In this document: piece by piece, positions 2,545-37,919 of the stretch
Layout of the letters: every line of letters starts with the position of its first letter
Position numbering within the stretch: position 1 is the first letter of the stretch
NCBI GenBank assembly: GCA_000004985.1
Contig: GG738918.1
Length of the DNA: 64,000 nucleotides
Strand: one strand, 5' to 3'
From: Naegleria gruberi
Lineage: Eukaryota
The notes under the pieces: model-generated
The model's database searches: none
What the model saw: only the letters and a program-made list of their open reading frames with translations
What the model was told of the DNA's origin: nothing
Translations under genes and position numbers: made by a program

Positions 2545-2547
2545 AAA

Positions 2548-3935
2548 ATGAATGAAGAAGAAACAAGCCCAACCGTCCTATCATTTGATCCATCATCTTG
2601 TGATCAAAAAGTTGCTTTAAGCTTGCTGAATCAGCAAGATGATTTAATGATTAGTGTATTTGAGTTTTTCTTTGGATCGGAAATATTAATACAAATAAGA
2701 TTGGTGTGTAAAGAGTGGTATCAATTATCTACAAAGGTTCCTCTCTATTTTCATTCATCTCCTCCCGATTATGATTTGGATACATTGGCTCTCTGTGAAC
2801 ATCTTACCCATCAAAATGAATTTACAAATATTGCATCAATTATTTGTTGTTCGCATCATTGGGGTAAGTAATCACATAAATTTTAATATATTTATGCAGG
2901 ACATGTATAATTGATTTAATTGATTGATATTTATTAGGAGAGATGAATGAGGAGAAGATGCAAATATTTTCACATCCACATTGCTCCAGAATGAAACGAT
3001 TAATTATTGGTCTGCAAGATTTAAAGATCTTTAATTCTAATCTCTCTAATTTGACTGATCTTGACCTGTACGAAACAAATTTAGATATGGAAGGCATAGA
3101 TAAATTGATTCAATTGAAACATTTGACTAGATTGAACATTCAATATAGTTCTGCCGATAGTTGTGAACCAATACTTGCAATGTTTGCAAATACTAATTGG
3201 AAAAAATTGAAATCACTAAACTTGCTTGCATTAATAGTGAAAGAGAAAAAAGTGCCATTAATCAAAGACGTTGAAATTGTTCCCTGTGGATTCAAACCAG
3301 AGCTAGAAAAGCTGGTCCTTGCAGAAAGTCAAATCTCTGGAAATTTGCTTAAACATCTTCTTAATTGTGAGATTCTATCAAATTTACAAATCTTGGACTT
3401 GAGCTACTTGTGCTTTGTATACAGCAATTCATCTATTCATAATTTAGATGGAGTACTTGCAATTGCCAACTCTAAATGCTTGAAAAATTTGAGGATTTTA
3501 AAATTGTATCAATCTTATATGGACAGTGATTGTATTAAACTAATTGCTGAGAGAGGATGTCAGACACTTCCTAATCTTCAATCATTGGATTTGCGAATGG
3601 GCCAACTTGGAGATGAATCATTTGAGAAAATTATGGAATATGAATTTATGCAAAATTTGGAATTATTATTTGTCATGTTGAGTGCAGAAAATAACAATTC
3701 TTACTTTTTGACCACTGTTTCTGCAAAGGCAATACTAAAGAATTCAAAGAAAATGAAGAAATCTCTATATGAAGCATATGAATATTATGTTCATGTAGGT
3801 GGCATTATTGATATTGAGAGAGATTATCAAAATTATCAAGTGGAAGAAGGTCCAAAATTGTTAGGAGCCATCGTTAATCATGGAAGTGATTGGGACTATG
3901 GTGTTGATGAACTAGAATTGTTATCCGAATCATAG
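2548..3935 (+). CDS. F-box-like / leucine-rich repeat (RNI-type) protein, 2 exons (2548..2863, 2938..3935; intron 2864..2937, phase 1)
   Basis: Exon 1 ends ...HHWG at a gtaagt donor at 2864. Acceptor ttattag at 2937 restores frame into ORF 2943..3935. The F-box-like motif is LMISVFEFFFGSEILIQIRLVCKEWYQLS. LRRs include LQSLDLRMGQLGDESFEKI. Confidence 0.55.
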
Positions 3936-4101
3936 TTTATTCATTTCCAAAAATCAATAATATTATTGAAACTTGTGAACTGATTCATTCCACTTTCGAA
4001 TAATCTTGATTAATGGATACACTAGGATAATGTGGAATTGAAAAATATTCATCTGATAGGATATACTCTTCGAATGGTATCTCCAGAGTGGCAGCATTCT
4101 C

Positions 4102-10711: not shown

Positions 10712-11194
10712 GATATTTTTTTTAATGTTGTTGTTATTAGTATCCAGTATTTACTAGTTTTCTAGTTTGGTGTGGAATAAAACAAGAAAAGACATGGTTC
10801 AATTATTGTTATTTGTTTAAATTTGAAATATATGTAACGGTTTTCTAAAGTGCCAAGAAATCACCTCGCTTATTAACCGTTTAAAAAAAAATTAATAAAA
10901 ATCTCAACAAAATTAATTACTTCCAGTTCATCATGAGTATTATTATTATTTCCAACTAATTTTAAGTTTAATATTATTTTTCAATTTTCATCATGTAACC
11001 CCACAAGAAGGATAACAACAATTCATGACCACCACCTCCAATTCCGGATGTTACCAACAAACATAGCACGATTACTATTTTACCTCATTCCGAAGATATA
11101 AAGTGTTGCTTGGATATTTATCAACACATCAATCGCACACAAGTTTTTGAAGATACACGATGTCAACAGGACGCTAAACAAATATCATCAAAAA

Positions 11195-14100
11195 ATGTTT
11201 GAAAGTGTTGTTGCCAAAGTATTGACAGCAACTCTTGGTGATTACATTGAAAATTTAGATAAACAATCATTGTCGGTTGGTGTGTGGAATGGTAAATTTA
11301 AACTGACAGATTTGATTGTTAAAAGATCGGCACTTGATTTGTTGGATTTACCTTTTTCTGTTGTGAATGGAACTGTTGGTTTGATTGAAGCTGATATACC
11401 ATGGAAGAGTATTTCAACTTCATCAATTAAAGTTCGATTGAGTGATATCATGTTGGTGGTTCAACCGAGGAGGTGTGAAAAAATTGATGAGACAAGTGAA
11501 AGGAAGAGACAACGAATGGTGAAACAGAGAAAGTTAACACAATATGAATTGAGAAGAAAATCAGAGAATGAAGTTTCGAATGCTGCAAGCCAAGCAACAA
11601 CAACAAATCAAACAGAAGAAACCAATGAAAAGAATGAAAAGAACGAAAAGAAACAAGAAGGATTTGTGTCAAGGTTGACTGAAACCATTATTAATAATCT
11701 TCAGATTGAGATTAATAATATTCACGTTAGATATGAAGATGATTCTGATGAAAGATTCAAAGTGGTTATGGGAGCAACACTTGAATCTCTTTCCATGTCA
11801 AGTTGTGATGTCAATTGGCAGGAATCTTTCTTGGCCACAACAGCAAAAACCTTTTTTAAAAAGCTTACATTGAGAAACTTATCAGTTTACATGAATAATA
11901 ATGAAACTGAATTGTTTTCATTGATGAAGAATGATTTGGATAATAGAAAATTCATTGAACACATGAGAAATATCATTGTGGAGAAGAAGAATTATAGGAG
12001 ATTTGTTTTGAGTCCAGTGAATGGAGAGTTATTGTTATGTATGCAGAAGGATGAAGCTTTGGATTTAGAAAGGCCAAGAATTAGTGCCGAGTTGAGGTTA
12101 GAATCGGTGAATGCAACACTGGACGAAAGGCAGTACAGAAATATTCAGTCAACTCTGGATTATATTACTCAGTTTATGGAAAAACCATTCGATAGACCAA
12201 TGTTTAATTCTCAAAACGAATGTCAACAATATTTATCTCAATCAACGGATGAGAAAGTTACCCAATTCAAAAATTACATGCTCATGTTCAAGAGGAGTAA
12301 GAAAGTGGCCTGGCTACAACCATTAACAAAAGATGAAGCTGAAAAATTATTGGAATTGGAAGATTTCATCCATGTTGATGACATTATGAAACTGAGAGAG
12401 GCAGCTTATCTTGAAATTCAAATTGAGGAACAAAAGTACAAACAAAAGAAGAAGGAATCAAGCTATTGGTCCAAGTGGTTCGGTTCAATTGATAAGACTA
12501 TTGAAGTTACCGAAGAGGATCGAGTGGAATTTTCCAAGCTATTTGGATTGGAAGAAGATAAGGGGCCATCTTTTATTCTTCCTCCACATTTTGTGAATTT
12601 TGCTCTTAAAGTTAAGATTAACACTATTGGAGTCAAGCTAAGGAATGCATCAACCAGAACTGCAGCACCTGATTCGGTTGCAGTATTTGAATTGACTCAA
12701 TTATTGGTCGATTTCAAGTTAAGAGTGGAGGGTTTTAATGTAGAGGTGAGTCTTGGAGGTGTATCCGGAGTTGACAATTTCTCTACAAGAAACGAACAGA
12801 GCATTTCAGAATATTACAACTTTGTCAAAACCAATTCTGTTGGAAATTTTGTCGAGTTTAAAATGGACTCTAATCCTATGAACGGAGTGGAGCAGATGGA
12901 TTGCAAGGTTGGCAATTTGAATGTGGTGTTGAATCTTTCTCTCATTCAAAAGATGTTGTCTATTTTCATTCTACCAAAATATTTACAAAGAAGTCAATTT
13001 ACAGCACCTTCATTACCAGATACTTTGAAAATTACAAAAAAGATACTCAATGCTGAGCTAGATAGTATTAGTGTAATCATTCCTGATACTCTTTCAGGTA
13101 AAGAATACTTTCAAGCTCATTTAGGACATTCTAAATTGACCAAAATTAATGAAAAGATTGATATTTCATTGACACCTATCAAATTGTTACACATTGGAGA
13201 AGCAGAGGATTTCACCATTATTCAGCCAACTGATTTCTCAATTTCTATGGTACAGACAATTGATCAAAATTTAATAGATGTCAAGTCCACTCCATTAATG
13301 GTTGATGTTAATCCTCAAGTGGTGACTCAATTGGTTCGGTTAGGAGATACTGTTTCTCATTTCACCAACAATCCATTCGGTTCTTCAAAGGAGAGTATTC
13401 TCATTGTAAATAATGTGCAAATGAAATTACCAAAACAAGAGGAACTTTCGTCAGCTCATATCCAATTACATGACGATGGTAGATTGTTAGTTTTCAAGGA
13501 AGAATCCAGTTTAGCTCCTTCACACAATATCTATTTCAACACTGTCCAATTCCATACGGAAACTAATAGTTTCAAAGTTGTGGATTTTGAATTTGTGCTT
13601 TCAAATGCAAAAACATTTGAAGAATGGAAGAAAAACTTGGAATCTCTATTGAACAAGAGCATTTCTAAAGCCCCACTTCCACCTGCCATAGAAACAATTG
13701 TAAATTTCAGTCTGGATAGTATCGTACTGAGAGCTCTGAATGATTCTTCATCGAGTGAAGTTGTTGCCATGGCACAAGCTAATGGGCTTCACACAAATGT
13801 ACTCGCGAGACCAAATGATAACCAGGTCAAGGTAACACTCCGAGAAATCACACTCCACGATGGAAATCAAAGAAAAATATTCTTCTCAGATCACAGTACG
13901 AATATTATTGAGATTAGTATTATTCTGTGCTCAAATAAGGAATCTGAATTTGCAAGCCAACATTCTTCTAAAATGTTCCTGAATATCAAGCTTTCAGATA
14001 TGAATTTGATTTTCAATACTGGAATTATCACAAAATTATTCCTATTTTCAAAGAAGATTAATTTTGAAAAGGAAAGTCCTATTGTAATGATTACAGAAGA

Positions 14101-17100
14101 TGATTCAGAGGATATTTTCAAACATGAAATGAAATTACAAGGAGAAATTTCTAAAATCCTTGTCGATTTGGAAAGAGAAGATAGTTCCAAGTTGGCCAAT
14201 TTCTCGCTTTCCAGTTTGAATGTAAATCTTTATATGGGAAAGAATAGTTTATCGTGTGAAGGAGATATTGGTACTGCCTATCTTTCACAACCTAATTCTA
14301 CATCTACTTATCCATATATTCTTTCTCCAAAATATTTGGGCGATCGCTCACTTATTAGATTTGCATACAGTCAAACAGATGATGAGCCAGTAATGAATAT
14401 AGAAAATTCAACCCGTGTTGTAAGAGGTTTCACCGAAAAGAAATCACTAAAGCTTGCAATGGCTTCAATTCAATTCATATTCATCAGCCAATTTATTGAG
14501 GACATTCAGAGTTATTTCCAAGATGGTCCACTATGGGAAGCTTTGGAAAATGGTGGAAAAATGATTAGTGACTATTCAAAAGAATTGATTTCTCAACAGG
14601 ATAAGAAATTGGAAATTATTTCTATGGACATTAAGGTGGAAGATCCAGTTGTTATTGCTCCAATACAAGACAATACTTTCACAGTTCACTTGGGAAATAT
14701 CAGATTAACCAATAAGGGAGACTGGGTTGAGAATGGAATTCCATGTGATAGCTATTCAATGATTTTCAATAGGATGAATTTACAAACTAAAATTAATGGA
14801 ATTGAAAAGACAGTGACTTCTCCATTCAATGTTGCTCTTGGATTGAAAAGAGTTCTCAAGAAGGATCACTTTCCAAGCATGTATTTGGATATTGAAATTG
14901 TACCAAAGGTTTTATTCACTTTGGAACATGCTCAGTATTTACTCTTGTTTCAACTTATTGATTCTTTCAATAAGAAACCAAGCGAAAGTAACGAAAAGAA
15001 ACAAGCAGAAGATTTGGAAAAGAAGGATAGTCTAACACTAATTGCTTTTATTAGAATCAAGTCCTTTGAGTTGGATGTAAAATCAGTAGCTGAGAATACT
15101 GATCTGGCCAAGTTGGAAGTTGAAGATTTCCAAATGAGATATTTCAAAGAACAATCTGGAGACAATATGCAATTCCTTGTCAAATCAATAATTGGAACTG
15201 ATCTAAGAGCTGAAAAGAATGAATATTTCACACAATTTATCACCACTCATTCCAAAACTACCAAGTGCTTGTCAGGTTCAATGATTACAAGAGGAAAGAA
15301 GAATGAAATTTCCCTCCAGATCAATAATCCAATTGTTACAATTATTCCTCAAGTATTTAAGGAGCTGCAAGAGTTCTTCTCCACAATGAAACTTGCTACA
15401 GAACCTCAAGAGGAAAAGAAACCAGAAAAGGAAATTAAGGAAGATGATTTAATGATATCTGTCAAATGTAACGATATTCGTGTAGCTCTTCCTGCCAATA
15501 ATTTCAATCAATTAGCATTCGTAATGAGATGCAAACAATTCTCAATGGAAGATATTCACAATTTCAATATTCATGATTTGGATCTTTCATTCCAAAAGAA
15601 TAGAAACAAATATGATGAGTACACCAACTATATTCTTCATCCAATTAGTTTGAATGTGAGCTATACGGATACTTTAATTATTCAGACAACTAGGGCAATT
15701 AATATTCGTATTTCAACAAGTATTATTCACCAAATTAGACAAGTTATGGACATGTTTACTTCTGAACTTTCCAAAATCAAAAAGACAACTGAAACCAAAT
15801 TGCCACCTTATCAAATTAACAACTTGCCTAATAATAAGGTAGATCTTTCGTATTTCGCTAACTTTTTTGCAAGTTTCAACCAAGAAACCAGATCTGAAAC
15901 CTTTAAATTTGAAGCATATCTAGTGTCAGGAATTTCCATTCTACTTGTCACTGATCGAAATGAAATTGACTTGCCAGCTCTACAACTCGATATTGAACAA
16001 GCGATCATTTCTGATTTCATTAGAATATCCAACATTCAACTATTGTGCTTCAATTTAAACTATGGAGTTTGGGAATCACTTGTGGAACCATTCACAGTTT
16101 CTGGATCTAGAAAAGGAAGCAATTACATTCTTGATATTCCAAAATGTTTATTGAATTTCAATAAGAATACATTCGAAATATTCAAATCTATAATGGAAAG
16201 TAAGGAAAGAAGTGTCATTACGAGAACTTTCTATCCAACAATTGTCAGAAACATGCATCCAACACCAATTACTATTAATGATCAATTACTGGAAGATGGT
16301 CAGGAATATATTGTGCAGGGAGAAGTTTCTTCTATTAGTTTCATTATTAATAATCAAACTTTCGTATTCTCCTTAAAGAAGAAACCAGGAACACATATTC
16401 TATCCTCTGAATGTTTACTCACTGTGGAAATTGTTGATGGAACAAGTTATTTTACCATTCATTCTTTGTATTCCATTGAGAATCAAACAGATGTCACCTT
16501 TGAAGTGTTGTACAATTCGAAACGATGTGGAAAACTTTCACCTAATCAAGTGAAATATCTTCCAAATGCTCCATTTGACAAGACCAATTTGAAAATTAGA
16601 CCATCCTATAGTGACGAGTACATGAGTCCAACATTCGAAGATCAAAATTCATCTCAATTCATCTTTATGAATAAGACTTCCAGTTTCTATTGTGAGTACG
16701 TGGAAGATATTGGACGAAACATGAAAAATTTCACAATTTCTCCACCTCTCAAACTAGAAAATAGAACTCCTATTGAATTGGACATGGAAATTAATGGAAA
16801 GAAATTTTCCTTACAAAAAGAATCCTCACTCTATTACTACTATGCCAATAAGGATTTCTCTGTGAACATTCTGACGAATAATCCTTCATTTAGTGATCAA
16901 TCATTCAGTGCCACAACCAGCAAAACCATGCAAATTTGTACGAATGGTAAAACTATTCCTCAAAAGCAAGAACCTAAAAAATCAAAATCATTTGCTGAGA
17001 TTGTCATTCGTGCACCTTTTTGGATTTTCAATGATTTGGAATTACCTATCAATATTAATGGAATTAATATTCTACCATTCAATTATACTACTATGAACAT

Positions 17101-19360
17101 CAATAATTTGACCATTTGTAGAGATGATAAAAACAAATTTACACCTAATTTGGATAAAATTCCACATGATACCATGGATTTGTGGAAATTAGGAGATAAA
17201 AGAATGGTTTACTATTTGAGAGAAACTGATGAGAGTAAATACATGTACCTCAGAGAAAGATATTACATTAGAAACAATACCAAATTTGATTTAAACATTA
17301 CTTTCGAGAAGAATTCATTCTCAGTCGCTGCAGGAAAGACACAACCTTATTCACATTACAATGATTCACTTCCTAAAATGAAAATCACTTTGGGAGAAGA
17401 GGAAAATATTGTGGAAACTAAATGTCAACAGGAATTGTCACTCAAATTTGGAAAATTCCTAAATGCCAAGCTTTTACTTAAGGAACAGGAAGGTTCAATG
17501 TTTGTGGTGATTAATGAAATACTATTGCCTGAATTTTACGTGGTCAACTCTACAGATTTGGAAATTGTAATTGATAAGGAAGGATTAGCTCCAAAAAATA
17601 TCAAACCCTATCTCAACATGCCCCAATCTGTTATAATTGACACCATTTCAGAGATTATCACCCTTAATAAGATTACAATGAATAAGGAAACAATGAAAAA
17701 GGTTGGAGATGAAGAAATTTATTACACACTCATTCCATATCAACAAGTAATCATTCTCCACATTCACAAAAAGAAAAAGACTGAGGAGAAGGATTATGAA
17801 CTGGCAGTAGATGTTACTTTCTATTCTATTGGAATTTCGATTATTGGTGAAAGTCAGGAATTGGCTTTTATTCATTTTGATCAATTATTTACTAAATTTG
17901 GAATGCTCAATACTCAATTTTGCGTTTATACTAAATTGCGTGGACTCCAAGTTGACGATCACAATGAACAAGAGGTCAACCCAGTTCAATTTGTGAATAT
18001 CAATTCTTCAGAGCAGAGTTTCATTGAATTTACAATAGAAAAGAATGGAAACTATTTTGAAACTGTTTCAGTAACTATCAGAGAAATGTTATTTAGCTCT
18101 AACAATATTTTCATTCAAAAGATGAGTGACGTATTCGCAAGTGCCATGAAACAAATGAAAGCAGTCCAAGAAACAAAACTAAATCAATTCTTGCAATATT
18201 TTGAAGTAGAGGAAAGTGAGAAAATGTTCTTTGGAAAGTTTGAACTCAATCCATTGAAAGTCGATGCTTCTTTCAAGGTGAAACCTTCCAATGATTTGAA
18301 ATACGATTTGGTTTATATTCTTTCCTCTTATGGAACTAAATTTACACACATTGAAAATGCCATAATTAGAATTTACGATTTCAAACTTCCTCAATCCTCA
18401 TTCGTTACCATGCAAGATGTTATGGAAAGAGTTGGAAAACACTACAAACGTCAAATCAAGTACAATTTATTGTCAATTATTGGATCGTTGAATACTTTTG
18501 GAAGTCCTATTCAATTATTTGGTGATTTGGCTTCAGGAGTTACTTCTCTATTTTATGAACCTGCAAATGCCATCACTGAAGGCCCACATATGTTCTTATT
18601 GGGTGTTGGTAAGGGATCTGTTGGATTTATTTCAAATTCTGTCAAGGGAGTAACTGGTTTCACATCAACAATTACAGGAACAGTTGGAAATACGCTTTCA
18701 ATCTTTACACTTGACAGAGATTTCGTCGAGAAGAGAGACAGGATTATGGAAAGGAAACCTGCCAATATTTTCCAAGGTATTGGACAAGGTATGCAAGTTC
18801 TCTTCACAGGACTCATTGATGGAGGTGTTGGAATTATTGCTCAACCAATTAAGGGAGCTAGAAAAGAGGGAGCTTTGGGATTGGCTAAAGGAGTTGTTCT
18901 TGGAATTGTTGGAATTCCTACAAAGCCAGTAGTTGGTATGATTGATTTTAGTATCAAGCAAATGCAAGGTATTCGAAACTTTAATCAATCATCACTTCAC
19001 AAAATTAGAGAAAATCCAAGAATGTTATTTAACGGAGTGATTAAACCATACAAGGAAAATATGGAATTGTTTTTGAGATTAATCCACAAATCCCAACAAT
19101 CAATAGAGTTTAATATTTTAATTCCTTTAGGAAAGACCTTGGCAATCACCAACAGACATTTGCTCATTCCACAATCAACCAACTCTAATGCACTTCAGGT
19201 TGTTGAATTGAATCAAGTGGAAGCTATTGAACAAGTAGATGATGATAATGTCAAGATTAGAGTGGCAAATCAAACAAGTTATTGTGTTTATTTGAATGTG
19301 GAGGCAGCTACTGTTCGTGCCTTGGTTGATAAGATGTTACGTGAGTTGAGTACTAATTAA
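11195..19360 (+). CDS. VPS13: VPS13-family bridge-like lipid transfer protein (chorein N-domain to VPS13/ATG2-type C-terminus), single exon
   Basis: The N-terminus MFESVVAKVLTATLGDYIENLDKQSLSVGVWNGKFKLTDLIVKRSALDLLDLPF matches the chorein-N motif of VPS13. The C-terminal region DLASGVTSLFYEPANAITEGP...GVGKGSVGFISNSVKGVTGF matches the VPS13 C-terminal (ATG_C-like) segment. It is a ~2720 aa uninterrupted ORF. The ATG at 11195 is chosen over the track start at 11147. Confidence 0.85.
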   Translation: MFESVVAKVLTATLGDYIENLDKQSLSVGVWNGKFKLTDLIVKRSALDLLDLPFSVVNGTVGLIEADIPWKSISTSSIKVRLSDIMLVVQPRRCEKIDETSERKRQRMVKQRKLTQYELRRKSENEVSNAASQATTTNQTEETNEKNEKNEKKQEGFVSRLTETIINNLQIEINNIHVRYEDDSDERFKVVMGATLESLSMSSCDVNWQESFLATTAKTFFKKLTLRNLSVYMNNNETELFSLMKNDLDNRKFIEHMRNIIVEKKNYRRFVLSPVNGELLLCMQKDEALDLERPRISAELRLESVNATLDERQYRNIQSTLDYITQFMEKPFDRPMFNSQNECQQYLSQSTDEKVTQFKNYMLMFKRSKKVAWLQPLTKDEAEKLLELEDFIHVDDIMKLREAAYLEIQIEEQKYKQKKKESSYWSKWFGSIDKTIEVTEEDRVEFSKLFGLEEDKGPSFILPPHFVNFALKVKINTIGVKLRNASTRTAAPDSVAVFELTQLLVDFKLRVEGFNVEVSLGGVSGVDNFSTRNEQSISEYYNFVKTNSVGNFVEFKMDSNPMNGVEQMDCKVGNLNVVLNLSLIQKMLSIFILPKYLQRSQFTAPSLPDTLKITKKILNAELDSISVIIPDTLSGKEYFQAHLGHSKLTKINEKIDISLTPIKLLHIGEAEDFTIIQPTDFSISMVQTIDQNLIDVKSTPLMVDVNPQVVTQLVRLGDTVSHFTNNPFGSSKESILIVNNVQMKLPKQEELSSAHIQLHDDGRLLVFKEESSLAPSHNIYFNTVQFHTETNSFKVVDFEFVLSNAKTFEEWKKNLESLLNKSISKAPLPPAIETIVNFSLDSIVLRALNDSSSSEVVAMAQANGLHTNVLARPNDNQVKVTLREITLHDGNQRKIFFSDHSTNIIEISIILCSNKESEFASQHSSKMFLNIKLSDMNLIFNTGIITKLFLFSKKINFEKESPIVMITEDDSEDIFKHEMKLQGEISKILVDLEREDSSKLANFSLSSLNVNLYMGKNSLSCEGDIGTAYLSQPNSTSTYPYILSPKYLGDRSLIRFAYSQTDDEPVMNIENSTRVVRGFTEKKSLKLAMASIQFIFISQFIEDIQSYFQDGPLWEALENGGKMISDYSKELISQQDKKLEIISMDIKVEDPVVIAPIQDNTFTVHLGNIRLTNKGDWVENGIPCDSYSMIFNRMNLQTKINGIEKTVTSPFNVALGLKRVLKKDHFPSMYLDIEIVPKVLFTLEHAQYLLLFQLIDSFNKKPSESNEKKQAEDLEKKDSLTLIAFIRIKSFELDVKSVAENTDLAKLEVEDFQMRYFKEQSGDNMQFLVKSIIGTDLRAEKNEYFTQFITTHSKTTKCLSGSMITRGKKNEISLQINNPIVTIIPQVFKELQEFFSTMKLATEPQEEKKPEKEIKEDDLMISVKCNDIRVALPANNFNQLAFVMRCKQFSMEDIHNFNIHDLDLSFQKNRNKYDEYTNYILHPISLNVSYTDTLIIQTTRAINIRISTSIIHQIRQVMDMFTSELSKIKKTTETKLPPYQINNLPNNKVDLSYFANFFASFNQETRSETFKFEAYLVSGISILLVTDRNEIDLPALQLDIEQAIISDFIRISNIQLLCFNLNYGVWESLVEPFTVSGSRKGSNYILDIPKCLLNFNKNTFEIFKSIMESKERSVITRTFYPTIVRNMHPTPITINDQLLEDGQEYIVQGEVSSISFIINNQTFVFSLKKKPGTHILSSECLLTVEIVDGTSYFTIHSLYSIENQTDVTFEVLYNSKRCGKLSPNQVKYLPNAPFDKTNLKIRPSYSDEYMSPTFEDQNSSQFIFMNKTSSFYCEYVEDIGRNMKNFTISPPLKLENRTPIELDMEINGKKFSLQKESSLYYYYANKDFSVNILTNNPSFSDQSFSATTSKTMQICTNGKTIPQKQEPKKSKSFAEIVIRAPFWIFNDLELPININGINILPFNYTTMNINNLTICRDDKNKFTPNLDKIPHDTMDLWKLGDKRMVYYLRETDESKYMYLRERYYIRNNTKFDLNITFEKNSFSVAAGKTQPYSHYNDSLPKMKITLGEEENIVETKCQQELSLKFGKFLNAKLLLKEQEGSMFVVINEILLPEFYVVNSTDLEIVIDKEGLAPKNIKPYLNMPQSVIIDTISEIITLNKITMNKETMKKVGDEEIYYTLIPYQQVIILHIHKKKKTEEKDYELAVDVTFYSIGISIIGESQELAFIHFDQLFTKFGMLNTQFCVYTKLRGLQVDDHNEQEVNPVQFVNINSSEQSFIEFTIEKNGNYFETVSVTIREMLFSSNNIFIQKMSDVFASAMKQMKAVQETKLNQFLQYFEVEESEKMFFGKFELNPLKVDASFKVKPSNDLKYDLVYILSSYGTKFTHIENAIIRIYDFKLPQSSFVTMQDVMERVGKHYKRQIKYNLLSIIGSLNTFGSPIQLFGDLASGVTSLFYEPANAITEGPHMFLLGVGKGSVGFISNSVKGVTGFTSTITGTVGNTLSIFTLDRDFVEKRDRIMERKPANIFQGIGQGMQVLFTGLIDGGVGIIAQPIKGARKEGALGLAKGVVLGIVGIPTKPVVGMIDFSIKQMQGIRNFNQSSLHKIRENPRMLFNGVIKPYKENMELFLRLIHKSQQSIEFNILIPLGKTLAITNRHLLIPQSTNSNALQVVELNQVEAIEQVDDDNVKIRVANQTSYCVYLNVEAATVRALVDKMLRELSTN

Positions 19361-32572: not shown

Positions 32573-33512
32573 TTTTTTCAAGTTTAAAGTTTTTCTAATA
32601 CAAGATGAAGAAGCTTGATGAAAACCAAATGTTTCTCTATGACTTGTTGCTGTTTGGCAAACTTTTTTTTAATGATATAAATCTGTAAACATTTTCAAAA
32701 ACTGTCAAAGATGTCAAAGTTGCCAGCAAACATCAATCTCTTCACCTTCTCTGAAAACTTGAATTATTTTTAGTGTCCTTGCTGGACTTTTATAACTAAG
32801 GACGAATTCTTCAATTTGCCTTGATGCCTCCTTAATATATCCTTGCAAACACTTTCCCGCCCAAAAAAGGGGAGATGAATACGTAATGCGAGTTGTTGCG
32901 CTTTTTGGAATTTTCATTGTATTTTAATGTCTTGTGAGGTTTCAGTAAAATTGTAGCGAGTGATAAAATTTGGAAGGAGTTAAAGTGAGCTTATCAATGA
33001 TGAGGATTGACATTTACACTATTGAATGAACTTGTTATCTTGCATTGATTCGAATAATTGAATGGATTTTTGAAAGAATTGATAGAAGAAAGTAAACTAA
33101 TCTTTGAGCAATCTTTAAGATTAATATGAGGAGAATAAAGTACTACCGAAAGTAGTATATTAAGATTTTATTAGAGATAATATTGTGTAGTGGAAGAGCA
33201 TGTCAGTATTACAAAAACATTTAAAAATAGTTGAATGTTGCGCATCGATGACATTTGACGACATGCGAAGTCAGCAGTTAGCCAATATCTTATTAACTTC
33301 TATATTTTATGTTACTATCAGATTATTTCACATTAAATACTTTCGTATTGTATTATTCTAAACAAAACCTTTGGCAAAAGCTCCATTTCACAGTATACGA
33401 AACTTAATGTCATAATAAGAAGTTGAACGTTGACTAAAGATGTGACACGCTAATCTAATAGTTACTAGATGTTCCATTTCAATAAACAATCAAAAACTAT
33501 CATGAGAAAAAA

Positions 33513-35185
33513 ATGTCTAGACGAATCTTATTGTGTTTCGTATTAGTTTTAGTATTGGCATTGGTCGCTTCACTTTCACAAGCAAAGGAAGAACCACATG
33601 TTGTAACTAAACATGATAAGGATGGTGTGTTGACTGTTGTTATTGATATGAGTGGAAGTAAAAAGAAGAAGGTAGAAAAGAAAGCAGAGAAGGTGGCGAA
33701 AGTAGACGAAAGTAAATTAAAGGTAGATTCACTTTCTAAACAAGCTGCTGCTATTATTGAAACATCTATATCATCAAAGGAGGCTACTCAAATTGCGCAA
33801 GATTTGTTAACACTCGCCAATGAAATTAGAAACGTAAGTTGTCACATGCCAACTAACAATTTCACTAACACTGACATTTCTCATTGATCTGTTATCTATT
33901 CCATTCACATACAATATCAAAATTGAACAAATAGGTTGAAAAACTCATCCCAGGTGATCAAGAAAAAGAAAAGAAAGATTTGAAAGATCAATTGACAGTT
34001 ATTGTTTCAAATCTTGTTCAACAAGCAGAAACTCCAAAAGCATTGTTATTGGAATCTTCACTCGTACTTGCTGCTCAACAAAAGAAAGCAGAACAATCTT
34101 CCCCAGTTGACTATGACAAGGTTTCTGTTGAAGATCTCCTTGGAAATTCAAAGAAATCTAGCAAGGGAGCCAAAACTCTCATTATTCCATCAAATCCTTG
34201 GGATTGGGCAGCATTAGGTTTGAATTTCGTAGATGGAATTGGAACTTACAGTCAAAAATTCAACAAGGTTGGAGAATTTATGAAAGGAAAAGTTGCTGAT
34301 AAATTGGAAAAATGGAATATGAAGTCATTGGCATCAGTTTCGAGAAATGCTGGCTCATCAATTAGTTCATATTCAAAGAAATTGGAACCGTATGAGCAAA
34401 AAGCTGCCAAATTTATTGCACCAGTTGTGAAATCAAAGACCTTCCAAGTTATTACCAAGTCGGTGAATGTTGTTTCTGGTGTTTTGAGTGTTCATGGAGG
34501 TTTGAAGGCATTGAATTTGATTAAGGGAGGTGGTGTTAAATTGCCAACCAGTTATGCTGCTTTGAAGACTACTCTCTCCAAGGTTGTTGCCAAATCTAAT
34601 ACTTTAATTAAGAATGGAAAGACTTTTATCACATCTAGTGGAAAGGTCACTAAAATTGTTGGTGCTTCCAAGAAGGCCTTAACCACTGCTGGAAGATTAA
34701 CCAAATTGAATGCTGCTCAATTCAAGAGAATGTCAACATGGAATAAGATTAGACACGTTGATGGTATCTATACTGGTTATGATGCTGCTAAGGGTTTGAA
34801 GGGTGATTTGAAGAATGTCAAGAATAGAGTTACAAATAAGTTGAAAAACAATACACCAAGAAAGGCACCAACTGGTAATAATAGATCCAATTCTAGAAAT
34901 ACCAAAAATACCAGAAATACCAGAAATACTGGAAATAGTAGAAATACCAGAAATTCCAGTAATGGAAGAAGTAGATCATCATCCAATACTACTCGTAGAC
35001 AAAATGCAAGCAATACTAGAGGAAATGTTAAAAGATCAAATAGTTCAACAACTAGAACTTCTTCCACCAAGTCAACTAGATCAAACATTAGCTCAAGAAA
35101 GTCTTCAAGTGGTTCTTCTAGAAGAACTGCTCCTACCAGAAAACAAACTATATCAAGTAAAAGAACTGGCGGCGGAAGAAAATAA
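33513..35185 (+). CDS. Secreted protein family member A: signal peptide, conserved core, Lys-rich and Asn/Thr/Arg/Ser-rich tail; 2 exons (33513..33833; 33935..35185)
   Basis: Signal peptide LLCFVLVLVLALVASLSQA. Exon 1 ends ...LANEIRN at a gtaagt donor. The acceptor aaatag at 33934 is in phase 0. The core FVDGIGTYSQKF...APVVKSKTFQ is shared with the gene at 36313..37919. Confidence 0.6.
34840..35110. repeat. Short-period (9-nt) coding repeats encoding NTRNTRNTGNSRNTRNSS... low-complexity tail
   Basis: aataccagaaataccagaaatactggaaatagtagaaataccagaaat. Confidence 0.6.
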
Positions 35186-35306
35186 ATGATTTGTTCGCAT
35201 CAAAAAAATCAAAAAAGCACCTGCTTCTAATTATGGAAATACTGCAATTTCAAAAAAATTTATTTTAAAAATTTATTTTAAAAAATTAAAAAGTATTTAA
35301 AAAAAA

Positions 35307-36146
35307 ATGCTCAACATCTCTGTCGAGGAAATTGTTCATCACTTGAATGAACACCTTCAAAAAGCCTATGAATCATCACCGAAATTGGAACAATATGAAA
35401 ATCCACGAATTGTTCAACAAGATGATATTCTACTTGTAGGAGTTTACGGATCACATATTTATGGATTGGCAACTGAACAATCAGACTTGGATATTTTCAT
35501 AATTGCATCGGAAGGGTTGGATGGTGAATTGGCCAAGTTGAGAGAGTTGATTCCGAACAAGCAGGATTATTCATATCAAGTAACTGAATTGCAAATTAAT
35601 GGAAAACAAGTTGATTTTTCAATTTATTCGGAAAAGTTATTTAGAGAATTATTGATGAGATTTATTTTGGATAGTTTTGAATTTTACTCGATTTTAATGA
35701 TGAGAAGAGAGTGGATGGTTCATGTGAATGAAGAGTTTGCTCAGCAAATTAAGGAATATGTGGAGAATAATGTTGTGAATTCTGCTGAGAGAGCTCTCAA
35801 TCTAAGAAAGGCAATTTCCAGAGAATCAGATCACTCATTTGTGAAAGGAAAGAACAAGATTGTAAAGGAATTCAAAGTTTATAAGGGAATCAAAGCCATG
35901 TTTCATTCATTGAGAACTGTAGTATTTGGCATTCAAATTGCAAAACACAACCAAGTCATTGATTTCTCCAAAGCAAACGAATATTGGAAAGAATTTGAAT
36001 TGTTCTACAGGGAAAAGATTGAATCTCAATTGAATGTTGAACCAATAGATTATGAAAAGATTTGGCTCACACTACGTGAGGAATTTCAACCAAAACTCAG
36101 ACAACTCCAGACAGAGTTTCGAATGGCAGCCAAATCCTCCCTCTAG
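35307..36146 (+). CDS. Pol-beta-superfamily nucleotidyltransferase (GS...SDLD motif), single exon
   Basis: LLVGVYGSHIYGLATEQSDLDIFIIAS gives the G[S]x9-13 D-x-D signature. A third acidic residue may be QVDFSIY. It is ~280 aa and no PAP-associated domain is recognised. Subfamily is unassigned. Confidence 0.55.
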   Translation: MLNISVEEIVHHLNEHLQKAYESSPKLEQYENPRIVQQDDILLVGVYGSHIYGLATEQSDLDIFIIASEGLDGELAKLRELIPNKQDYSYQVTELQINGKQVDFSIYSEKLFRELLMRFILDSFEFYSILMMRREWMVHVNEEFAQQIKEYVENNVVNSAERALNLRKAISRESDHSFVKGKNKIVKEFKVYKGIKAMFHSLRTVVFGIQIAKHNQVIDFSKANEYWKEFELFYREKIESQLNVEPIDYEKIWLTLREEFQPKLRQLQTEFRMAAKSSL

Positions 36147-36312
36147 TCCCAATTTGGAAGGCAACTGATTCTCATGTCCATTCGTGTTCACAATAAGCAG
36201 CAGGTCACAACCACCACTGAAATATTTTAGACGTTTACATGTGTCACTGCAAGTTCTTTTCTCACCTTTTCTCGACCAATGGGATATTAGGAAAAAACAT
36301 CATGCGAAAAAA

Positions 36313-37919
36313 ATGATCAAGGTCTCTACTGTTTCCTTGACTTTAGCCATCTGTTTGATGGTTTTGTGTCTTTGTTTTATTGGAAACACAAGTGCACGTT
36401 CCATTGCCATCAAGAATAGAGCTGGAGGAGATTTGACACTTGTAATTGATTTTGGAAAGGGAAAAGATTCATCTTCTTCATCATCTGAAAAGAAAAAACA
36501 AGAATTACCAGCAGTGGACGAAACTACAAAGAAAGTTATTGACAAAGTCCAAGATGTGATCAGTAGTAGTGAAGAGAAGCAAATTGCCGAATCCTTGTTG
36601 ACATTTGCTAATGAAATTAGACAGGTAAGTAGTTGGCAACAACTGCACTAGATCAACAAGATTATTTCTATTGTCATTAGATGGAAAAACTAATTCCAGG
36701 ATCAAACTCTGAGCAAAAACTTGTTAAACAAGAACTTTTGGCCATTATTAATGAATTCACAAAGGAATCTGAGAAACCTTCTGCCTTCATCTTGAAATCT
36801 TCCCTTGAAATGGTTGCTGATGCCAAGAAGAAGAAAACAGAGCAACAACAAGCTGAACCTGGTTCAGTATCCTCTGGAGCTCAATCTCTCTTTATTCAAG
36901 CTGGTATTAGTGTATTGAACGATGCCATGAATTTTGTTGATGGAATTGGAACATATTCCACCAAAATGTCAAGTGTTGGTAATTGGATTAGTGGAAAGCT
37001 TGCAACCAAGTTGGATTCCTGGGGATTAAAATCTGTAGCTCAATTCGCTAAAAACACTGGTAAATCCATTGATGGATTAGCTAAGAAAGTAGCTCCATAT
37101 GAACAAAAATTGGCCAAAGCAATTGCTCCTGTTGTTAAATCGAAAACTTTCCAATCCATCAAGAGAGTTGTCAATGTTGTTGGTGGTGCAATCAGTATCA
37201 AGAATGGTTTGAAACATCTTGGAATGTTACCTAAACAATTACCAAAAGCTTTCAACAAGTTGAAATCCACACTTACCAAGGCAGCTGCACCAATTAAGAC
37301 TAAAGCAGCTTCCTTGATTAAAAAGGTCACTAAATCTGGAGCTGCCGTCAAGAAGGCCAACAGTGCCAAGAAAGCTGCCAAAGCTGCAAAAGATGCTAAG
37401 AAAGCTACCAAGGCCGCCAAGAAAGCTGCCAAGACTGCTAAGCAACCAGGAAAATTGGCAAAGGCCTTTGGAAAAGCTAAAGCTGTTAAGGATGTTAAGG
37501 ATGGTTTTGGTGATATGAAGAGTGGCTTGTTTGGAGAAGGAAAACCAAAGAAATCTCAAACTAACAACAAGAAACAAACTGCCAATAATAGAAGAACAAC
37601 AAATAATCAAACTAATAACAGAAGAACTGCCAACAATCAAACTGCCAACAGAAGAACTGCAAATAATCAAAGAGGAAATACCAGAAACTCTTCCACTAGA
37701 ACTAATAGTAGTAGAAGAAGTACTTCATCTTCAAGAAGCTCACCTACAAGAAACAGTACTAACAATAGAGGAAGACAAACAACTAGTAGAACTAGCTCAA
37801 CCAGTAGAAGAACATCATCACCAAGTGGAAGACAATCAAGCAGTAGAAGTAGCAGCTCTTCAAGAGGGTCCTCTGGCGGAAGTCGATCATCAGGTGGTAG
37901 CAAAGGAGGAAGAAGATAA
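36313..37919 (+). CDS. Secreted protein family member B (tandem paralog of A): 2 exons (36313..36624; 36681..37919), 56-bp intron
   Basis: Signal/TM MIKVSTVSLTLAICLMVLCLCFIGNTSA. Exon 1 ends ...FANEIRQ|gtaagt at the same position and phase as in A. Exon 2 is MEKLIPGS... Conserved core FVDGIGTYSTKM...APVVKSKTFQ. Tails are AKKAAKAAKDAKKATKAAKKAAKTAK followed by NNRRTTNNQTNNRRT... and RS-rich. Confidence 0.6.
37330..37900. repeat. Coding low-complexity repeats: about 12-15 nt period (AKKAAK), then 24-nt period (TANNRRTxNNQ), then Ser/Arg-rich
   Basis: gccaagaaagctgccaaagctgcaaaagatgctaagaaagctacc...; actgccaataatagaagaacaacaaataatcaaactaataacagaagaactgccaacaatcaa. Confidence 0.6.

What the first reader, a model, noticed from the sequence alone, without database searches (positions are those of the whole stretch)
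33513..37919. Tandem pair of novel secreted proteins with conserved intron position and basic low-complexity tails, flanking a Pol-beta-type nucleotidyltransferase
Genes A (33513..35185) and B (36313..37919) share a signal peptide and an N-terminal exon ending ...LANEIR(N/Q) at a phase-0 intron. They also share a ~110-aa core (FVDGIGTYS..APVVKSKTFQ) with no family I recognise. The tails are fast-evolving: Asn/Thr/Arg-rich, AKKAAK histone-H1-like, or Ser/Arg-rich. A single-exon nucleotidyltransferase (GS..SDLD) lies between them. It was either inserted after the duplication or is a third member of a co-regulated unit. Basic tails on secreted proteins suggest binding to polyanions such as cell wall, nucleic acid or membranes.
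Basis: partly seen in the sequence, partly recalled or inferred. Interest (0 to 1): 0.55.

Follow-up and report, generated by a model that had tools for sequence, protein, structure and literature searches.

The report
Naegleria secreted basic-tailed protein gene pair
Two neighbouring Naegleria gruberi genes belong to an undescribed family, found only in heterolobosean amoebae, of signal-peptide proteins with a helical bundle and a very basic repeat-built tail; the enzyme gene between them is an unrelated phage-type nucleotidyltransferase, so this is a real but fairly ordinary lineage-specific family.

Summary
The window is Naegleria gruberi. Gene A (523 aa) is the annotated "predicted protein" NAEGRDRAFT_74850. 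Gene B (516 aa) is its paralogue (36% identity, E 8e-61). Both have an N-terminal signal-peptide-like segment, a phase-0 GTAAGT intron after ...ANEIR(N/Q), a helical core and a tail of net charge about +30.

They are not a private pair. At least 9 N. gruberi loci belong to the family, with further members in N. lovaniensis, N. fowleri, Acrasis kona and environmental protists. The intron position is kept in all 7 Naegleria loci I could read. A is closest to a paralogue on another scaffold (72%), and B to NAEGRDRAFT_70206 (61%).

No Pfam, NCBIfam, PDB-sequence or fold match is significant. The AlphaFold model with 21 sequences (pTM 0.64) is a generic helical bundle.

The middle ORF (279 aa) is a real gene with host-like codon usage. 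It has no exact or similar counterpart in the public protein collections searched. It has full-length relatives in large phages (30% identity, E 3e-19). It is absent from 7 other family loci, so a three-gene unit is not supported.

Function is inferred only: secretory-pathway proteins that bind polyanions, most likely in a wall or surface matrix.

The parts
33513..33833 (+). Gene A exon 1 (107 codons). It encodes the signal-peptide-like segment (33513..33584), a short beta-hairpin region and the first helices, and ends ...LANEIRN.
   Evidence: The spliced product equals NAEGRDRAFT_74850.
33834..33934 (+). Gene A intron: phase 0, GTAAGT...AG, 101 nt, with two ACTAAC motifs.
   Evidence: The read-through ORF stops inside it.
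33935..35185 (+). Gene A exon 2. The helical core runs to about 34603, Lys-rich helices follow, and the S/R/N/T tail occupies 34844..35182 (net charge +30), including a 9-nt x 7.7 repeat at 34895..34963.
35307..36146 (+). Intronless 279-aa nucleotidyltransferase gene. The GS...DLD motif lies at 35445..35492. No exact or similar sequence was found in the public protein collections searched.
   Evidence: Pfam and PHROG hits; phage homologues; host-like codon usage; conserved in a second strain with 5 synonymous and 3 conservative changes; no exact or similar protein in the collections.
36313..36624 (+). Gene B exon 1 (104 codons). It encodes the signal-peptide-like segment (36313..36396) and ends ...FANEIRQ.
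   Evidence: A read-through ORF of a second strain is P0015.
36625..36680 (+). Gene B intron: phase 0, GTAAGT...TTAG, 56 nt.
   Evidence: It carries a 6-nt deletion in strain L002.
36681..37919 (+). Gene B exon 2. It encodes the helical core, the AKKAAK-type Lys/Ala region (37314..37544) and the S/R/N/T tail (37545..37916), with a 30-nt x 2.9 repeat at 37584..37671. The protein ends ...GGRR.
   Evidence: Indels against L002 are all multiples of 3.
33492..33515 (+). Leader around the start codon of gene A, shared with gene B (AAAAACTATCATGAGAAAAAAATG). It contains an out-of-frame ATG 11 nt upstream of the start codon.
   Evidence: D14, 88% identity; the pattern occurs only at these two places in the window.
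36292..36315 (+). The same leader in front of gene B (AAAAAACATCATGCGAAAAAAATG).
   Evidence: Strain L002 has ...CATGAGAAAAAAATG, which matches gene A's version over those 15 bases.

Best explanation
A and B are two old paralogues of a multigene family restricted to Heterolobosea.

Each protein enters the secretory pathway through a cleavable N-terminal signal peptide. It folds into one helical-bundle domain. That domain is assembled from helices on both sides of a disordered Gln/Ser-rich linker, and so from both exons. Lys-rich amphipathic helices follow. The protein ends in a 100-130-residue disordered tail with no acidic residues and a net charge of about +30.

The tail grows and shrinks by slippage of short coding repeats. 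Its charge is kept while its sequence is not.

The most likely role is structural. The tail sticks electrostatically to polyanionic material outside the cell or inside secretory compartments, such as a cyst-wall, pore-plug or surface-coat matrix. The bundle would supply protein-protein or lipid/glycan contacts.

The family expands by local duplication, so adjacent same-strand pairs recur.

The nucleotidyltransferase between A and B is an independent gene. It is host-adapted and intronless, belongs to a phage/bacterial Pol-beta-type family, and merely lies in the intergenic space.

Shown: paralogy, family extent, intron conservation, signal-peptide-like N-termini, charge and repeat structure of the tails, helical-bundle prediction, and the identity and independence of the nucleotidyltransferase.

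Inferred: actual secretion, polyanion binding, and the wall or matrix role.
For: - Paralogy: E 8e-61.
- Family size: 30 cluster representatives in a full HMMER scan of 1.84 billion proteins, 27 of them at E <= 1e-10. Named members come only from N. gruberi, N. lovaniensis, N. fowleri and Acrasis kona.
- Intron: a GTAAGT donor directly after the homologous codon at all 7 Naegleria loci readable here.
- N-termini: all 17 full-length members have an N-terminal hydrophobic segment and no later one.
- Tails: the last 110 residues carry net +14 to +36 in 12 members with very different compositions, namely S/R/N, S/R/G, A/K or P/R/A.
- Tail dynamics: the tails are built from tandem repeats and differ by in-frame indels between strains.
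- Structure: the AlphaFold model from 21 sequences has pLDDT 71.5 and pTM 0.64. Helices 4-92 and 143-218 are confident and the linker 93-140 is disordered.
- Local duplication: a second, non-orthologous same-strand pair exists in N. fowleri.
- Nucleotidyltransferase: phage homologues cover 82-89% of its length, it shares a C-terminal motif with them, its codon usage is host-like, it shows 5 synonymous against 3 conservative changes between strains, and it is absent from 7 other family loci.
Against: - No expression, localisation or binding data were found. Five searches for locus tags and accession numbers or for Naegleria secretome and cyst literature, plus one paper read, gave nothing on these genes.
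- The signal-peptide call rests on hydropathy and the -3/-1 rule, not on a trained predictor. The long hydrophobic regions (15-20 residues) could act as signal anchors.
- The fold is a generic helical bundle and says nothing about function.
- The wall or matrix role rests only on analogy and on net charge.
- Gene B has no public gene model. That could mean low expression in the life stages sampled, or simply an annotation gap.
Confidence: 0.45

Rival explanations
1. The proteins are cationic effectors against prey or bacteria. They would be delivered through the secretory or lysosomal route to phagosomes or the medium. The polycationic tail would bind LPS or teichoic acids, and the amphipathic helical bundle would open on membranes, as exchangeable apolipoproteins and cationic antimicrobial proteins do.
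For: - A signal-peptide-like N-terminus combined with strong positive charge and Lys-rich amphipathic helices.
- Faint, non-significant resemblance to apolipophorin-III, at E about 0.1 in the PDB profile search and with one member hitting Pfam ApoLp-III at 0.0035.
- The family is multigene and its tails diverge fast, as expected for proteins that face other organisms.
- Naegleria feeds on bacteria (general knowledge).
Against: - The apolipophorin similarity carries high compositional bias and is not significant.
- The Ser/Asn/Thr-rich tails are unlike typical amphipathic antimicrobial peptides.
- There is no evidence of processing into peptides.
- No functional data exist.
Confidence: 0.2
2. 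The proteins are secreted stress or desiccation protectants of cysts, comparable to LEA proteins. They would be largely disordered hydrophilic helices that coat membranes or wall material during drying.
For: - The sequence is Lys/Ala-rich and predicted helical, with long low-confidence or disordered parts.
- Scattered weak hits appear to the apolipoprotein, YtxH and DUF1664 type amphipathic-helix families.
- Gene B has no public gene model, which is compatible with expression outside the amoeba and flagellate stages sampled for annotation (inference).
Against: - No LEA-family hit appeared among the 25 Pfam families listed for the 21 members.
- The core is predicted as a compact bundle with pTM 0.64 rather than as disordered.
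- The extreme Arg/Ser tails are not LEA-like.
Confidence: 0.1
3. A, the nucleotidyltransferase and B form a functional three-gene unit. The enzyme would be co-regulated with the flanking secreted proteins, or would act on them or their mRNAs.
For: - The three genes lie on the same strand with short spacers of 121 and 166 nt.
- The arrangement nucleotidyltransferase then B is kept in a second strain.
Against: - The second strain is 98% identical, so conserved order there carries no information.
- The enzyme gene is absent from 7 other family loci with 0.1-10 kb of flank, including another tandem pair.
- The enzyme has no signal peptide, so it sits in a different compartment (read directly from the sequence).
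- The leader shared by A and B is missing in front of it.
- Short spacers are the rule across this gene-dense window.
Confidence: 0.07
4. The hydrophobic N-termini are not used for secretion, and the proteins are intracellular nucleic-acid or chromatin binders. This reading rests on the histone-H1-like AKKAAK stretch and the protamine/SR-like tails.
For: - Gene B carries Lys/Ala repeats like the C-terminal domain of linker histones.
- The Arg/Ser-rich tails resemble RNA-binding low-complexity regions.
Against: - The hydrophobic N-terminal segment is kept in all 17 full-length members although its sequence is not conserved, which argues that it is used.
- There is no linker-histone, RRM or other nucleic-acid-binding domain.
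- The public models for A, P0003 and NAEGRDRAFT_70206 all include the N-terminal segment.
Confidence: 0.05

Closest known systems
Giardia cyst wall protein 2 (CWP2), a secreted wall protein with a basic C-terminal extension of about 120 residues (recalled from Lujan et al. 1995; not checked here)
   Same: It has a signal peptide, a folded N-terminal domain and a long, strongly basic C-terminal tail, in a secreted structural protein of a cyst-forming protist.
   Different: The CWP2 domain is made of leucine-rich repeats, whereas this one is a helical bundle with no LRR or any Pfam hit. There is no sequence relationship. A cyst-wall role for the Naegleria family is untested.
Apolipophorin-III and exchangeable apolipoproteins (PDB 1AEP, 1LS4; Pfam PF07464, PF01442)
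   Same: Both are secreted, all-helical up-and-down bundles of amphipathic helices. This was the only named natural fold family to recur among the weak hits.
Polycationic secreted matrix proteins such as diatom silaffins (recalled from general knowledge)
   Same: They have a signal peptide, Ser/Lys/Arg-rich low-complexity sequence of high positive charge, and rapid repeat-driven divergence.
   Different: Silaffins lack a conserved folded domain and act in silica formation. Naegleria is not known to mineralise. There is no homology.
Phage nucleotidyltransferases of PHROG 388, for example Xanthomonas phage XacN1 ORF208 and Bacillus phage Kirov gp101. This comparison concerns the middle gene.
   Same: The N-terminal YGS...SDxD Pol-beta motif and a C-terminal helical domain with the shared motif FHSxR..FGIQIAKH are both present. 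Identity is 28-31% over 82-89% of the Naegleria protein.
   Different: The Naegleria protein is longer (279 aa against about 200). It has an N-terminal extension of about 25 residues and three insertions. It sits in a eukaryotic genome with host-like codon usage. The function of the phage family is itself unknown.
MNT/MntA minimal nucleotidyltransferases of HEPN-MNT toxin-antitoxin pairs, and RlaP (PF10127)
   Same: They share the catalytic motif region.
   Different: The MntA equivalog scores 21.9 against a cut-off of 60. RlaP matches only profile positions 8-68 of 249. No HEPN partner gene is adjacent.

Membership tests
Tandem or local paralogues of one gene family (A and B) | Significant full-length sequence similarity | tested here: met
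   BLASTP gives 36% identity and E 8e-61. Core identity is 46%.
Tandem or local paralogues of one gene family (A and B) | Shared exon-intron structure | tested here: met
   A phase-0 GTAAGT intron follows the homologous codon in A, B and five further Naegleria loci.
Tandem or local paralogues of one gene family (A and B) | The two genes are each other's closest relatives, as expected for a recent private duplication | tested here: not met
   A is 72% identical to P0002 on another scaffold. B is 61% identical to the P0006 / NAEGRDRAFT_70206 cluster. A and B share only 46% in the core.
Secretory proteins with a cleavable signal peptide | Basic n-region, hydrophobic h-region, small residues at -3/-1, and no further transmembrane segment | tested here: met
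   A hydropathy scan of 17 members places the h-region within the first 14 residues in 16 of them, and at residue 27 in the N. fowleri model P0034, which seems to start too far upstream. Kyte-Doolittle values are 2.6-3.7. The maximum for a later 19-residue window is 1.64 or less. Cleavage-type motifs are SQA|K and TSA|R. This is a heuristic only.
Secretory proteins with a cleavable signal peptide | A trained predictor call, or experimental evidence of secretion | not testable with these tools
   No SignalP-type tool and no proteomic data were available.
Any curated protein family (Pfam, NCBIfam) for the A/B core | A hit above the curated threshold | tested here: not met
   No family was found for A. 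B gave only a noise hit. None of 21 members shares a consistent Pfam family. NCBIfam gave nothing.
Apolipophorin-III-like exchangeable apolipoproteins | Significant sequence or profile similarity | tested here: not met
   The PDB profile search gave E 0.08-0.09 with high bias.
Apolipophorin-III-like exchangeable apolipoproteins | A specific five-helix up-and-down bundle fold | tested here: inconclusive
Linker histone H1/H5 (considered because of B's AKKAAK stretch) | Globular winged-helix domain flanked by Lys/Ala tails | tested here: not met
   There is no linker-histone Pfam hit. The Lys/Ala stretch follows an unrelated helical core and a signal peptide.
Pol-beta-type nucleotidyltransferase superfamily (middle gene) | The motif hG[GS]x9-13[DE]h[DE]h, and a hit above the Pfam threshold | tested here: met
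   The motif reads VYGSHIYGLATEQSDLDIFII. NTP_transf_2 scores 28.1 bits against 21, and Polbeta 26.9 against 26.9. G48, S49, D60 and D62 are invariant with the phage homologues.
Pol-beta-type nucleotidyltransferase superfamily (middle gene) | A third catalytic carboxylate on a later beta-strand | tested here: inconclusive
   A candidate Asp lies in QVDFSIY, but that segment falls in a region aligned against gaps in the phage proteins.
Phage nucleotidyltransferase family PHROG 388 | A profile hit plus full-length homology that includes the C-terminal domain | tested here: met
   phrog_388 scores E 2e-9. tblastn finds 60 phage records, 51 of which cover at least 80% of the query, with a best E of 3e-19. 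The C-terminal motif is shared.
HEPN-MNT (MntA) toxin-antitoxin nucleotidyltransferase | An equivalog-level score and an adjacent HEPN partner | tested here: not met
   NF047752 scores 21.9 against a cut-off of 60. The neighbours are genes A and B, not a HEPN gene.
RlaP (PF10127) | A full-length match to the 249-position profile | tested here: inconclusive
   The score is 23.3 against a gathering score of 23, but only profile positions 8-68 align.

The most novel reading that the evidence does not exclude
The family could be a heterolobosean invention that builds or organises an extracellular structure, such as the Naegleria cyst wall or pore plugs, or an adhesive surface coat. In this reading a conserved helical-bundle module is coupled to a polycationic tail whose length is tuned by repeat slippage. 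The recurring C-terminal ...GG(R/K)(R/K) end would be a processing or sorting signal. Independently, the unannotated nucleotidyltransferase could be a phage- or bacterium-derived gene domesticated by Naegleria.
Probability: 0.15. Interest if true: 0.5.

Novelty: new variant of a known kind. Interest (0 to 1): 0.3.

Why it matters
If the inference holds, this family would give the first molecular handle on a set of secreted, strongly cationic proteins common to Naegleria and Acrasis. That includes the pathogen N. fowleri, through FDP41_010275 and a neighbouring gene. They would be candidates for cyst-wall, adhesion or prey-interaction components, none of which is well characterised in Heterolobosea.

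In practical terms, the locus shows that the public protein sets searched appear to lack two real N. gruberi genes here: gene B and the nucleotidyltransferase. Several family gene models also look faulty.

The phage-type nucleotidyltransferase is a possible case of gene transfer into a bacterivorous amoeba.

None of this changes a general principle. Lineage-specific secreted families with low-complexity tails are common in protist genomes.

Tried and rejected
1. Word-indexed protein searches. The search with A found only itself and two paralogues. The search with the 21-sequence profile was swamped by low-complexity candidates and added nothing. The search with the nucleotidyltransferase found nothing, not even itself.

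2. AlphaFold with only 4 sequences gave an unusable model, pLDDT 38. It was replaced by the 21-sequence run.

4. The apolipophorin-III lead was rejected as compositional, at E about 0.1 with high bias.

5. PADLOC and MntA leads for the nucleotidyltransferase match the motif region only and fall below thresholds.

6. Locus scans for the nucleotidyltransferase in viral contigs and metagenome contigs found nothing. The genome-contig scan found only a spurious 28-residue match in a Crocinitomicaceae MAG.

7. Exact-sequence contig look-ups for P0002, P0003 and B exon 2 were not on record, so N. gruberi paralogue neighbourhoods could not be read.

8. Literature searches for locus tags and accession numbers, and for Naegleria secretome or cyst transcriptome papers, found nothing on these genes. 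A search on peptide amidation in Naegleria was uninformative.

9. No repeats of the mobile-element type flank the nucleotidyltransferase.

10. The upstream palindrome ATGTG(A/T)CAC at about -73 of both genes was considered as a shared regulatory site. One position differs in the second strain, so it is left as a weak lead.

Full report
**Source and gene models.** The window is AT-rich (about 33% G+C) and comes from Naegleria gruberi. The spliced product of gene A is 100% identical over its 523 residues to XP_002670169.1 / NAEGRDRAFT_74850 / UniProt D2W0G6, annotated only as "predicted protein".
- Gene A: 33513..33833 + 33935..35185.
- Gene B: 36313..36624 + 36681..37919, 516 aa.

Both introns begin with GTAAGT, end with AG and are phase 0. 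They follow the homologous codon (...LANEIRN and ...FANEIRQ) and precede the homologous sequence (V/M)EKLIPG. Without splicing, both reading frames stop inside the intron.

**Paralogy.** A and B align over 466 columns at 36% identity, E 8e-61. tblastn against the window finds no third copy. Two corrections apply. The stretch FVDGIGTYS..APVVKSKTFQ is 74 residues rather than about 110. Homology covers essentially the whole protein except the tail.

**The family.** A full HMMER scan of 1.84 billion cluster representatives, using a profile of four N. gruberi cores, returned 30 proteins. Of these, 27 had E <= 1e-10. Cluster look-ups give the following named members:
- N. gruberi: NAEGRDRAFT_82053, _63440, _66957, _70206 and _52385, in addition to A, P0002 and P0003.
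- N. lovaniensis: C9374_008815, _003269 and _013835.
- N. fowleri: FDP41_010275.
- Acrasis kona: AKO1_006519 and _006399.

The remaining hits are unnamed sequences from metagenomes, Logan assemblies and a Tara metatranscriptome. With B, N. gruberi has at least 9 loci.

In the core, A is 46% identical to B, whereas B is 61% identical to the NAEGRDRAFT_70206 cluster. A is 72% identical to P0002 on another scaffold. The A/B duplication is therefore old, and the two are not a private pair.

A contig that matches N. fowleri (L011) carries two other family genes on one strand about 1 kb apart. Local duplication is thus a recurrent mode of expansion.

**Intron conservation.** At DNA level a GTAAGT donor directly follows the homologous codon in all 7 Naegleria loci I could read: window A and B, L002, L003, L004 and both genes of L011. 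Several short "proteins" in the collections are exon-1 read-throughs that diverge at exactly this point with Val (GTx). A distant family member of unknown origin (L001, P0031) is uninterrupted there.

**Architecture.**
- All 17 full-length members start with a basic n-region. A hydrophobic stretch follows, with a 12-residue Kyte-Doolittle mean of 2.6-3.7. Small residues occupy -3/-1. None has a later transmembrane-like segment. The sequence of this segment is not conserved but its character is, which argues that it is used.
- AlphaFold with four sequences was useless, pLDDT 38.
- With 21 diverse cores it gave pLDDT 71.5 and pTM 0.64. Residues 4-92 and 143-218 of the core form confident helices. 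They are separated by a disordered Gln/Ser-rich linker. Helices encoded by both exons thus form a single bundle.
- Downstream come Lys-rich helices, which form the AKKAAK-type stretch in B. The tail follows. It has net charge +30 in A and +29 in B, no acidic residues, and S/R/N/T composition.
- In 12 other members the last 110 residues carry +14 to +36, with quite different compositions: S/R/G, A/K or P/R/A. Charge is conserved and sequence is not.
- The tails are encoded by short tandem repeats: 9 nt x 7.7 in A, and 30 nt x 2.9 plus 9/12/21-nt units in B.
- A metagenome contig from a strain 98% identical (L002) differs in B only by indels that are multiples of three, plus 7 synonymous and 5 non-synonymous substitutions.

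**Comparison with known families.**
- Pfam and NCBIfam give nothing for A. For B they give only a sub-threshold noise hit.
- Scanning 21 members individually gives no consistent family. There are only scattered weak hits to amphipathic-helix families such as ApoLp-III, YtxH, Apolipoprotein and DUF1664.
- A profile search of PDB sequences gives apolipophorin-III at E 0.08-0.09, with high compositional bias.
- Foldseek against PDB and against viral models gives nothing below E 0.4.

The family is undescribed.

**The nucleotidyltransferase.**
- ORF 35307..36146 (279 aa) passes the Pfam gathering score for NTP_transf_2 and reaches that of Polbeta. RlaP matches only through the motif region.
- It hits PHROG 388 "nucleotidyltransferase" at 2e-9.
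- tblastn against phage genomes finds 60 records, 51 of which cover at least 80% of the query. The best is Xanthomonas jumbo phage XacN1 ORF208 (30.6% identity, E 3e-19). Many Bacillus and Prevotella phages also match.
- The alignment shows the N-terminal YGS...SDxD motif. It also shows a strongly conserved C-terminal motif (S.NSFVK.K.K ... FHSxR..FGIQIAKH). The Naegleria protein has an N-terminal extension and three insertions.
- Codon usage in the reading frame is like that of other genes in the window: log-likelihood 0.18 per codon against 0.08-0.24 for reference ORFs. The other frames are strongly negative.
- In strain L002 it has 5 synonymous and 3 conservative non-synonymous changes and no indel.

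It is therefore a real, host-adapted gene. Neither it nor gene B exists as an exact sequence in the 15-billion-protein collection. Neither appears as a similar protein in the similarity searches. Both appear to be missing from the public protein sets searched.

**Is the enzyme linked to the family?** tblastn finds it only in L002, which is the same locus in a near-identical strain. It is not found in seven other family loci with 0.1-10 kb of flank: L001, L003, L004, L008 (20 kb), L009, L010 and L011. It has no signal peptide. It lacks the 24-nt leader that A and B share around their start codons. No repeats of the mobile-element type flank it. A three-gene unit is not supported. It could not be excluded, however, because the orthologous loci of other Naegleria species could not be read here.

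**Mechanism.** The following are shown:
- paralogy and the extent of the family;
- the conserved intron;
- the conserved signal-peptide-like N-terminus;
- the predicted helical bundle;
- the conserved polycationic, repeat-driven tail.

Inferred: the proteins enter the secretory pathway, and the tail binds polyanionic material electrostatically. My preferred reading is a structural role in a cyst-wall, pore-plug or surface-coat matrix. It rests on analogy with Giardia CWP2 and other polycationic secreted matrix proteins (recalled, not tested), and on the absence of any enzymatic domain. Overall confidence is 0.45. It is high for the anatomy and about 0.3 for the role.

Rivals are listed below with their confidence:
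- cationic effectors that bind prey or bacteria (0.2);
- secreted desiccation protectants (0.1);
- a functional unit with the enzyme (0.07);
- intracellular nucleic-acid binders that do not use the hydrophobic N-terminus (0.05).

No expression or localisation data were found in the literature library.

**Verdict.** This is a correct observation of a real locus, but one of modest significance. It is an undescribed heterolobosean family of secretory basic-tailed proteins, plus an unrelated, unannotated phage-type nucleotidyltransferase. Interest is 0.3.

Noticed in passing
window 36313..37919 and 35307..36146: Gene B and the nucleotidyltransferase gene have no exact counterpart in the 15-billion-protein collection and did not appear in the similarity searches, although gene A and two paralogues did. 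Both seem to be missing from the public protein sets searched.
   Followed up: partly
window 35307..36146; L006 1462..2070; L007 1477..2064: The only full-length relatives of the Naegleria nucleotidyltransferase found here are in large phages: Xanthomonas XacN1, and Bacillus and Prevotella phages. They share a C-terminal motif FHSxR..FGIQIAKH of unknown function. This could reflect an old transfer from bacteria or phage into the amoeba.
   Followed up: partly
window 33492..33515 and 36292..36315: A 24-nt leader around the start codon is 88% identical between A and B. It includes an out-of-frame upstream ATG 11 nt before the start, and the pattern TCATGNGAAAAAA occurs nowhere else in the 64 kb. 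A similar ...CTATCGTGAAAAAATG precedes the NAEGRDRAFT_70206 orthologue in L004.
   Followed up: partly
window 33440..33448 and 36239..36247: The near-palindrome ATGTG(A/T)CAC lies about 73 nt upstream of both start codons and nowhere else in the window. One base differs in strain L002 (ATGCGTCAC), so its significance is doubtful.
   Followed up: partly
C-termini of A (window 35159..35182), B (37899..37916) and relatives: Many family members end in ...GGGRK...GGRR...RRGGK...RGGRR or ...SGRR. This includes the distant member P0031 (...RGGRR). It looks like a conserved terminal motif and resembles glycine plus dibasic processing or amidation signals. It remains unexplained (and the end of the alignment).
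   Followed up: no
Proteins P0002, P0035 and P0034 (other N. gruberi and N. fowleri loci): Several public gene models of the family look faulty. P0002 (393 aa) lacks about 100 residues of the core right after the conserved intron site. NAEGRDRAFT_52385 is an 1822-aa model that clusters with a 302-aa family fragment and is probably a fusion. FDP41_010275 starts about 25 residues upstream of the hydrophobic segment.
   Followed up: partly
L011 about 540..1411 and about 2300..3988: A contig matching N. fowleri carries two other family members in tandem on one strand. Both have the conserved GTAAGT intron site, and there is no nucleotidyltransferase between them.
   Followed up: yes
L001 3288..4445: A distant family member (P0031, 17-27% identity to the Naegleria-clade members in the core) lies on a Logan contig of 40% G+C and unknown origin. 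It has no intron at the conserved site and carries an AKxxKSGLKAAxKAAKRAAKS-type repeat tail. Its neighbours include a pentapeptide-repeat protein.
   Followed up: partly
L004 758..1954 (orthologue of NAEGRDRAFT_70206): This member carries a His/Gly/Ser-rich insert (HGSSGHGSSGHGSSGHGSSSGHG...) between the Lys-rich helices and the Ser/Arg tail. This is a further tail variant and could bind metal.
   Followed up: no
window 11147..19360 (+): A very long uninterrupted ORF of 2737 codons lies elsewhere in the window. I did not examine it.
   Followed up: no
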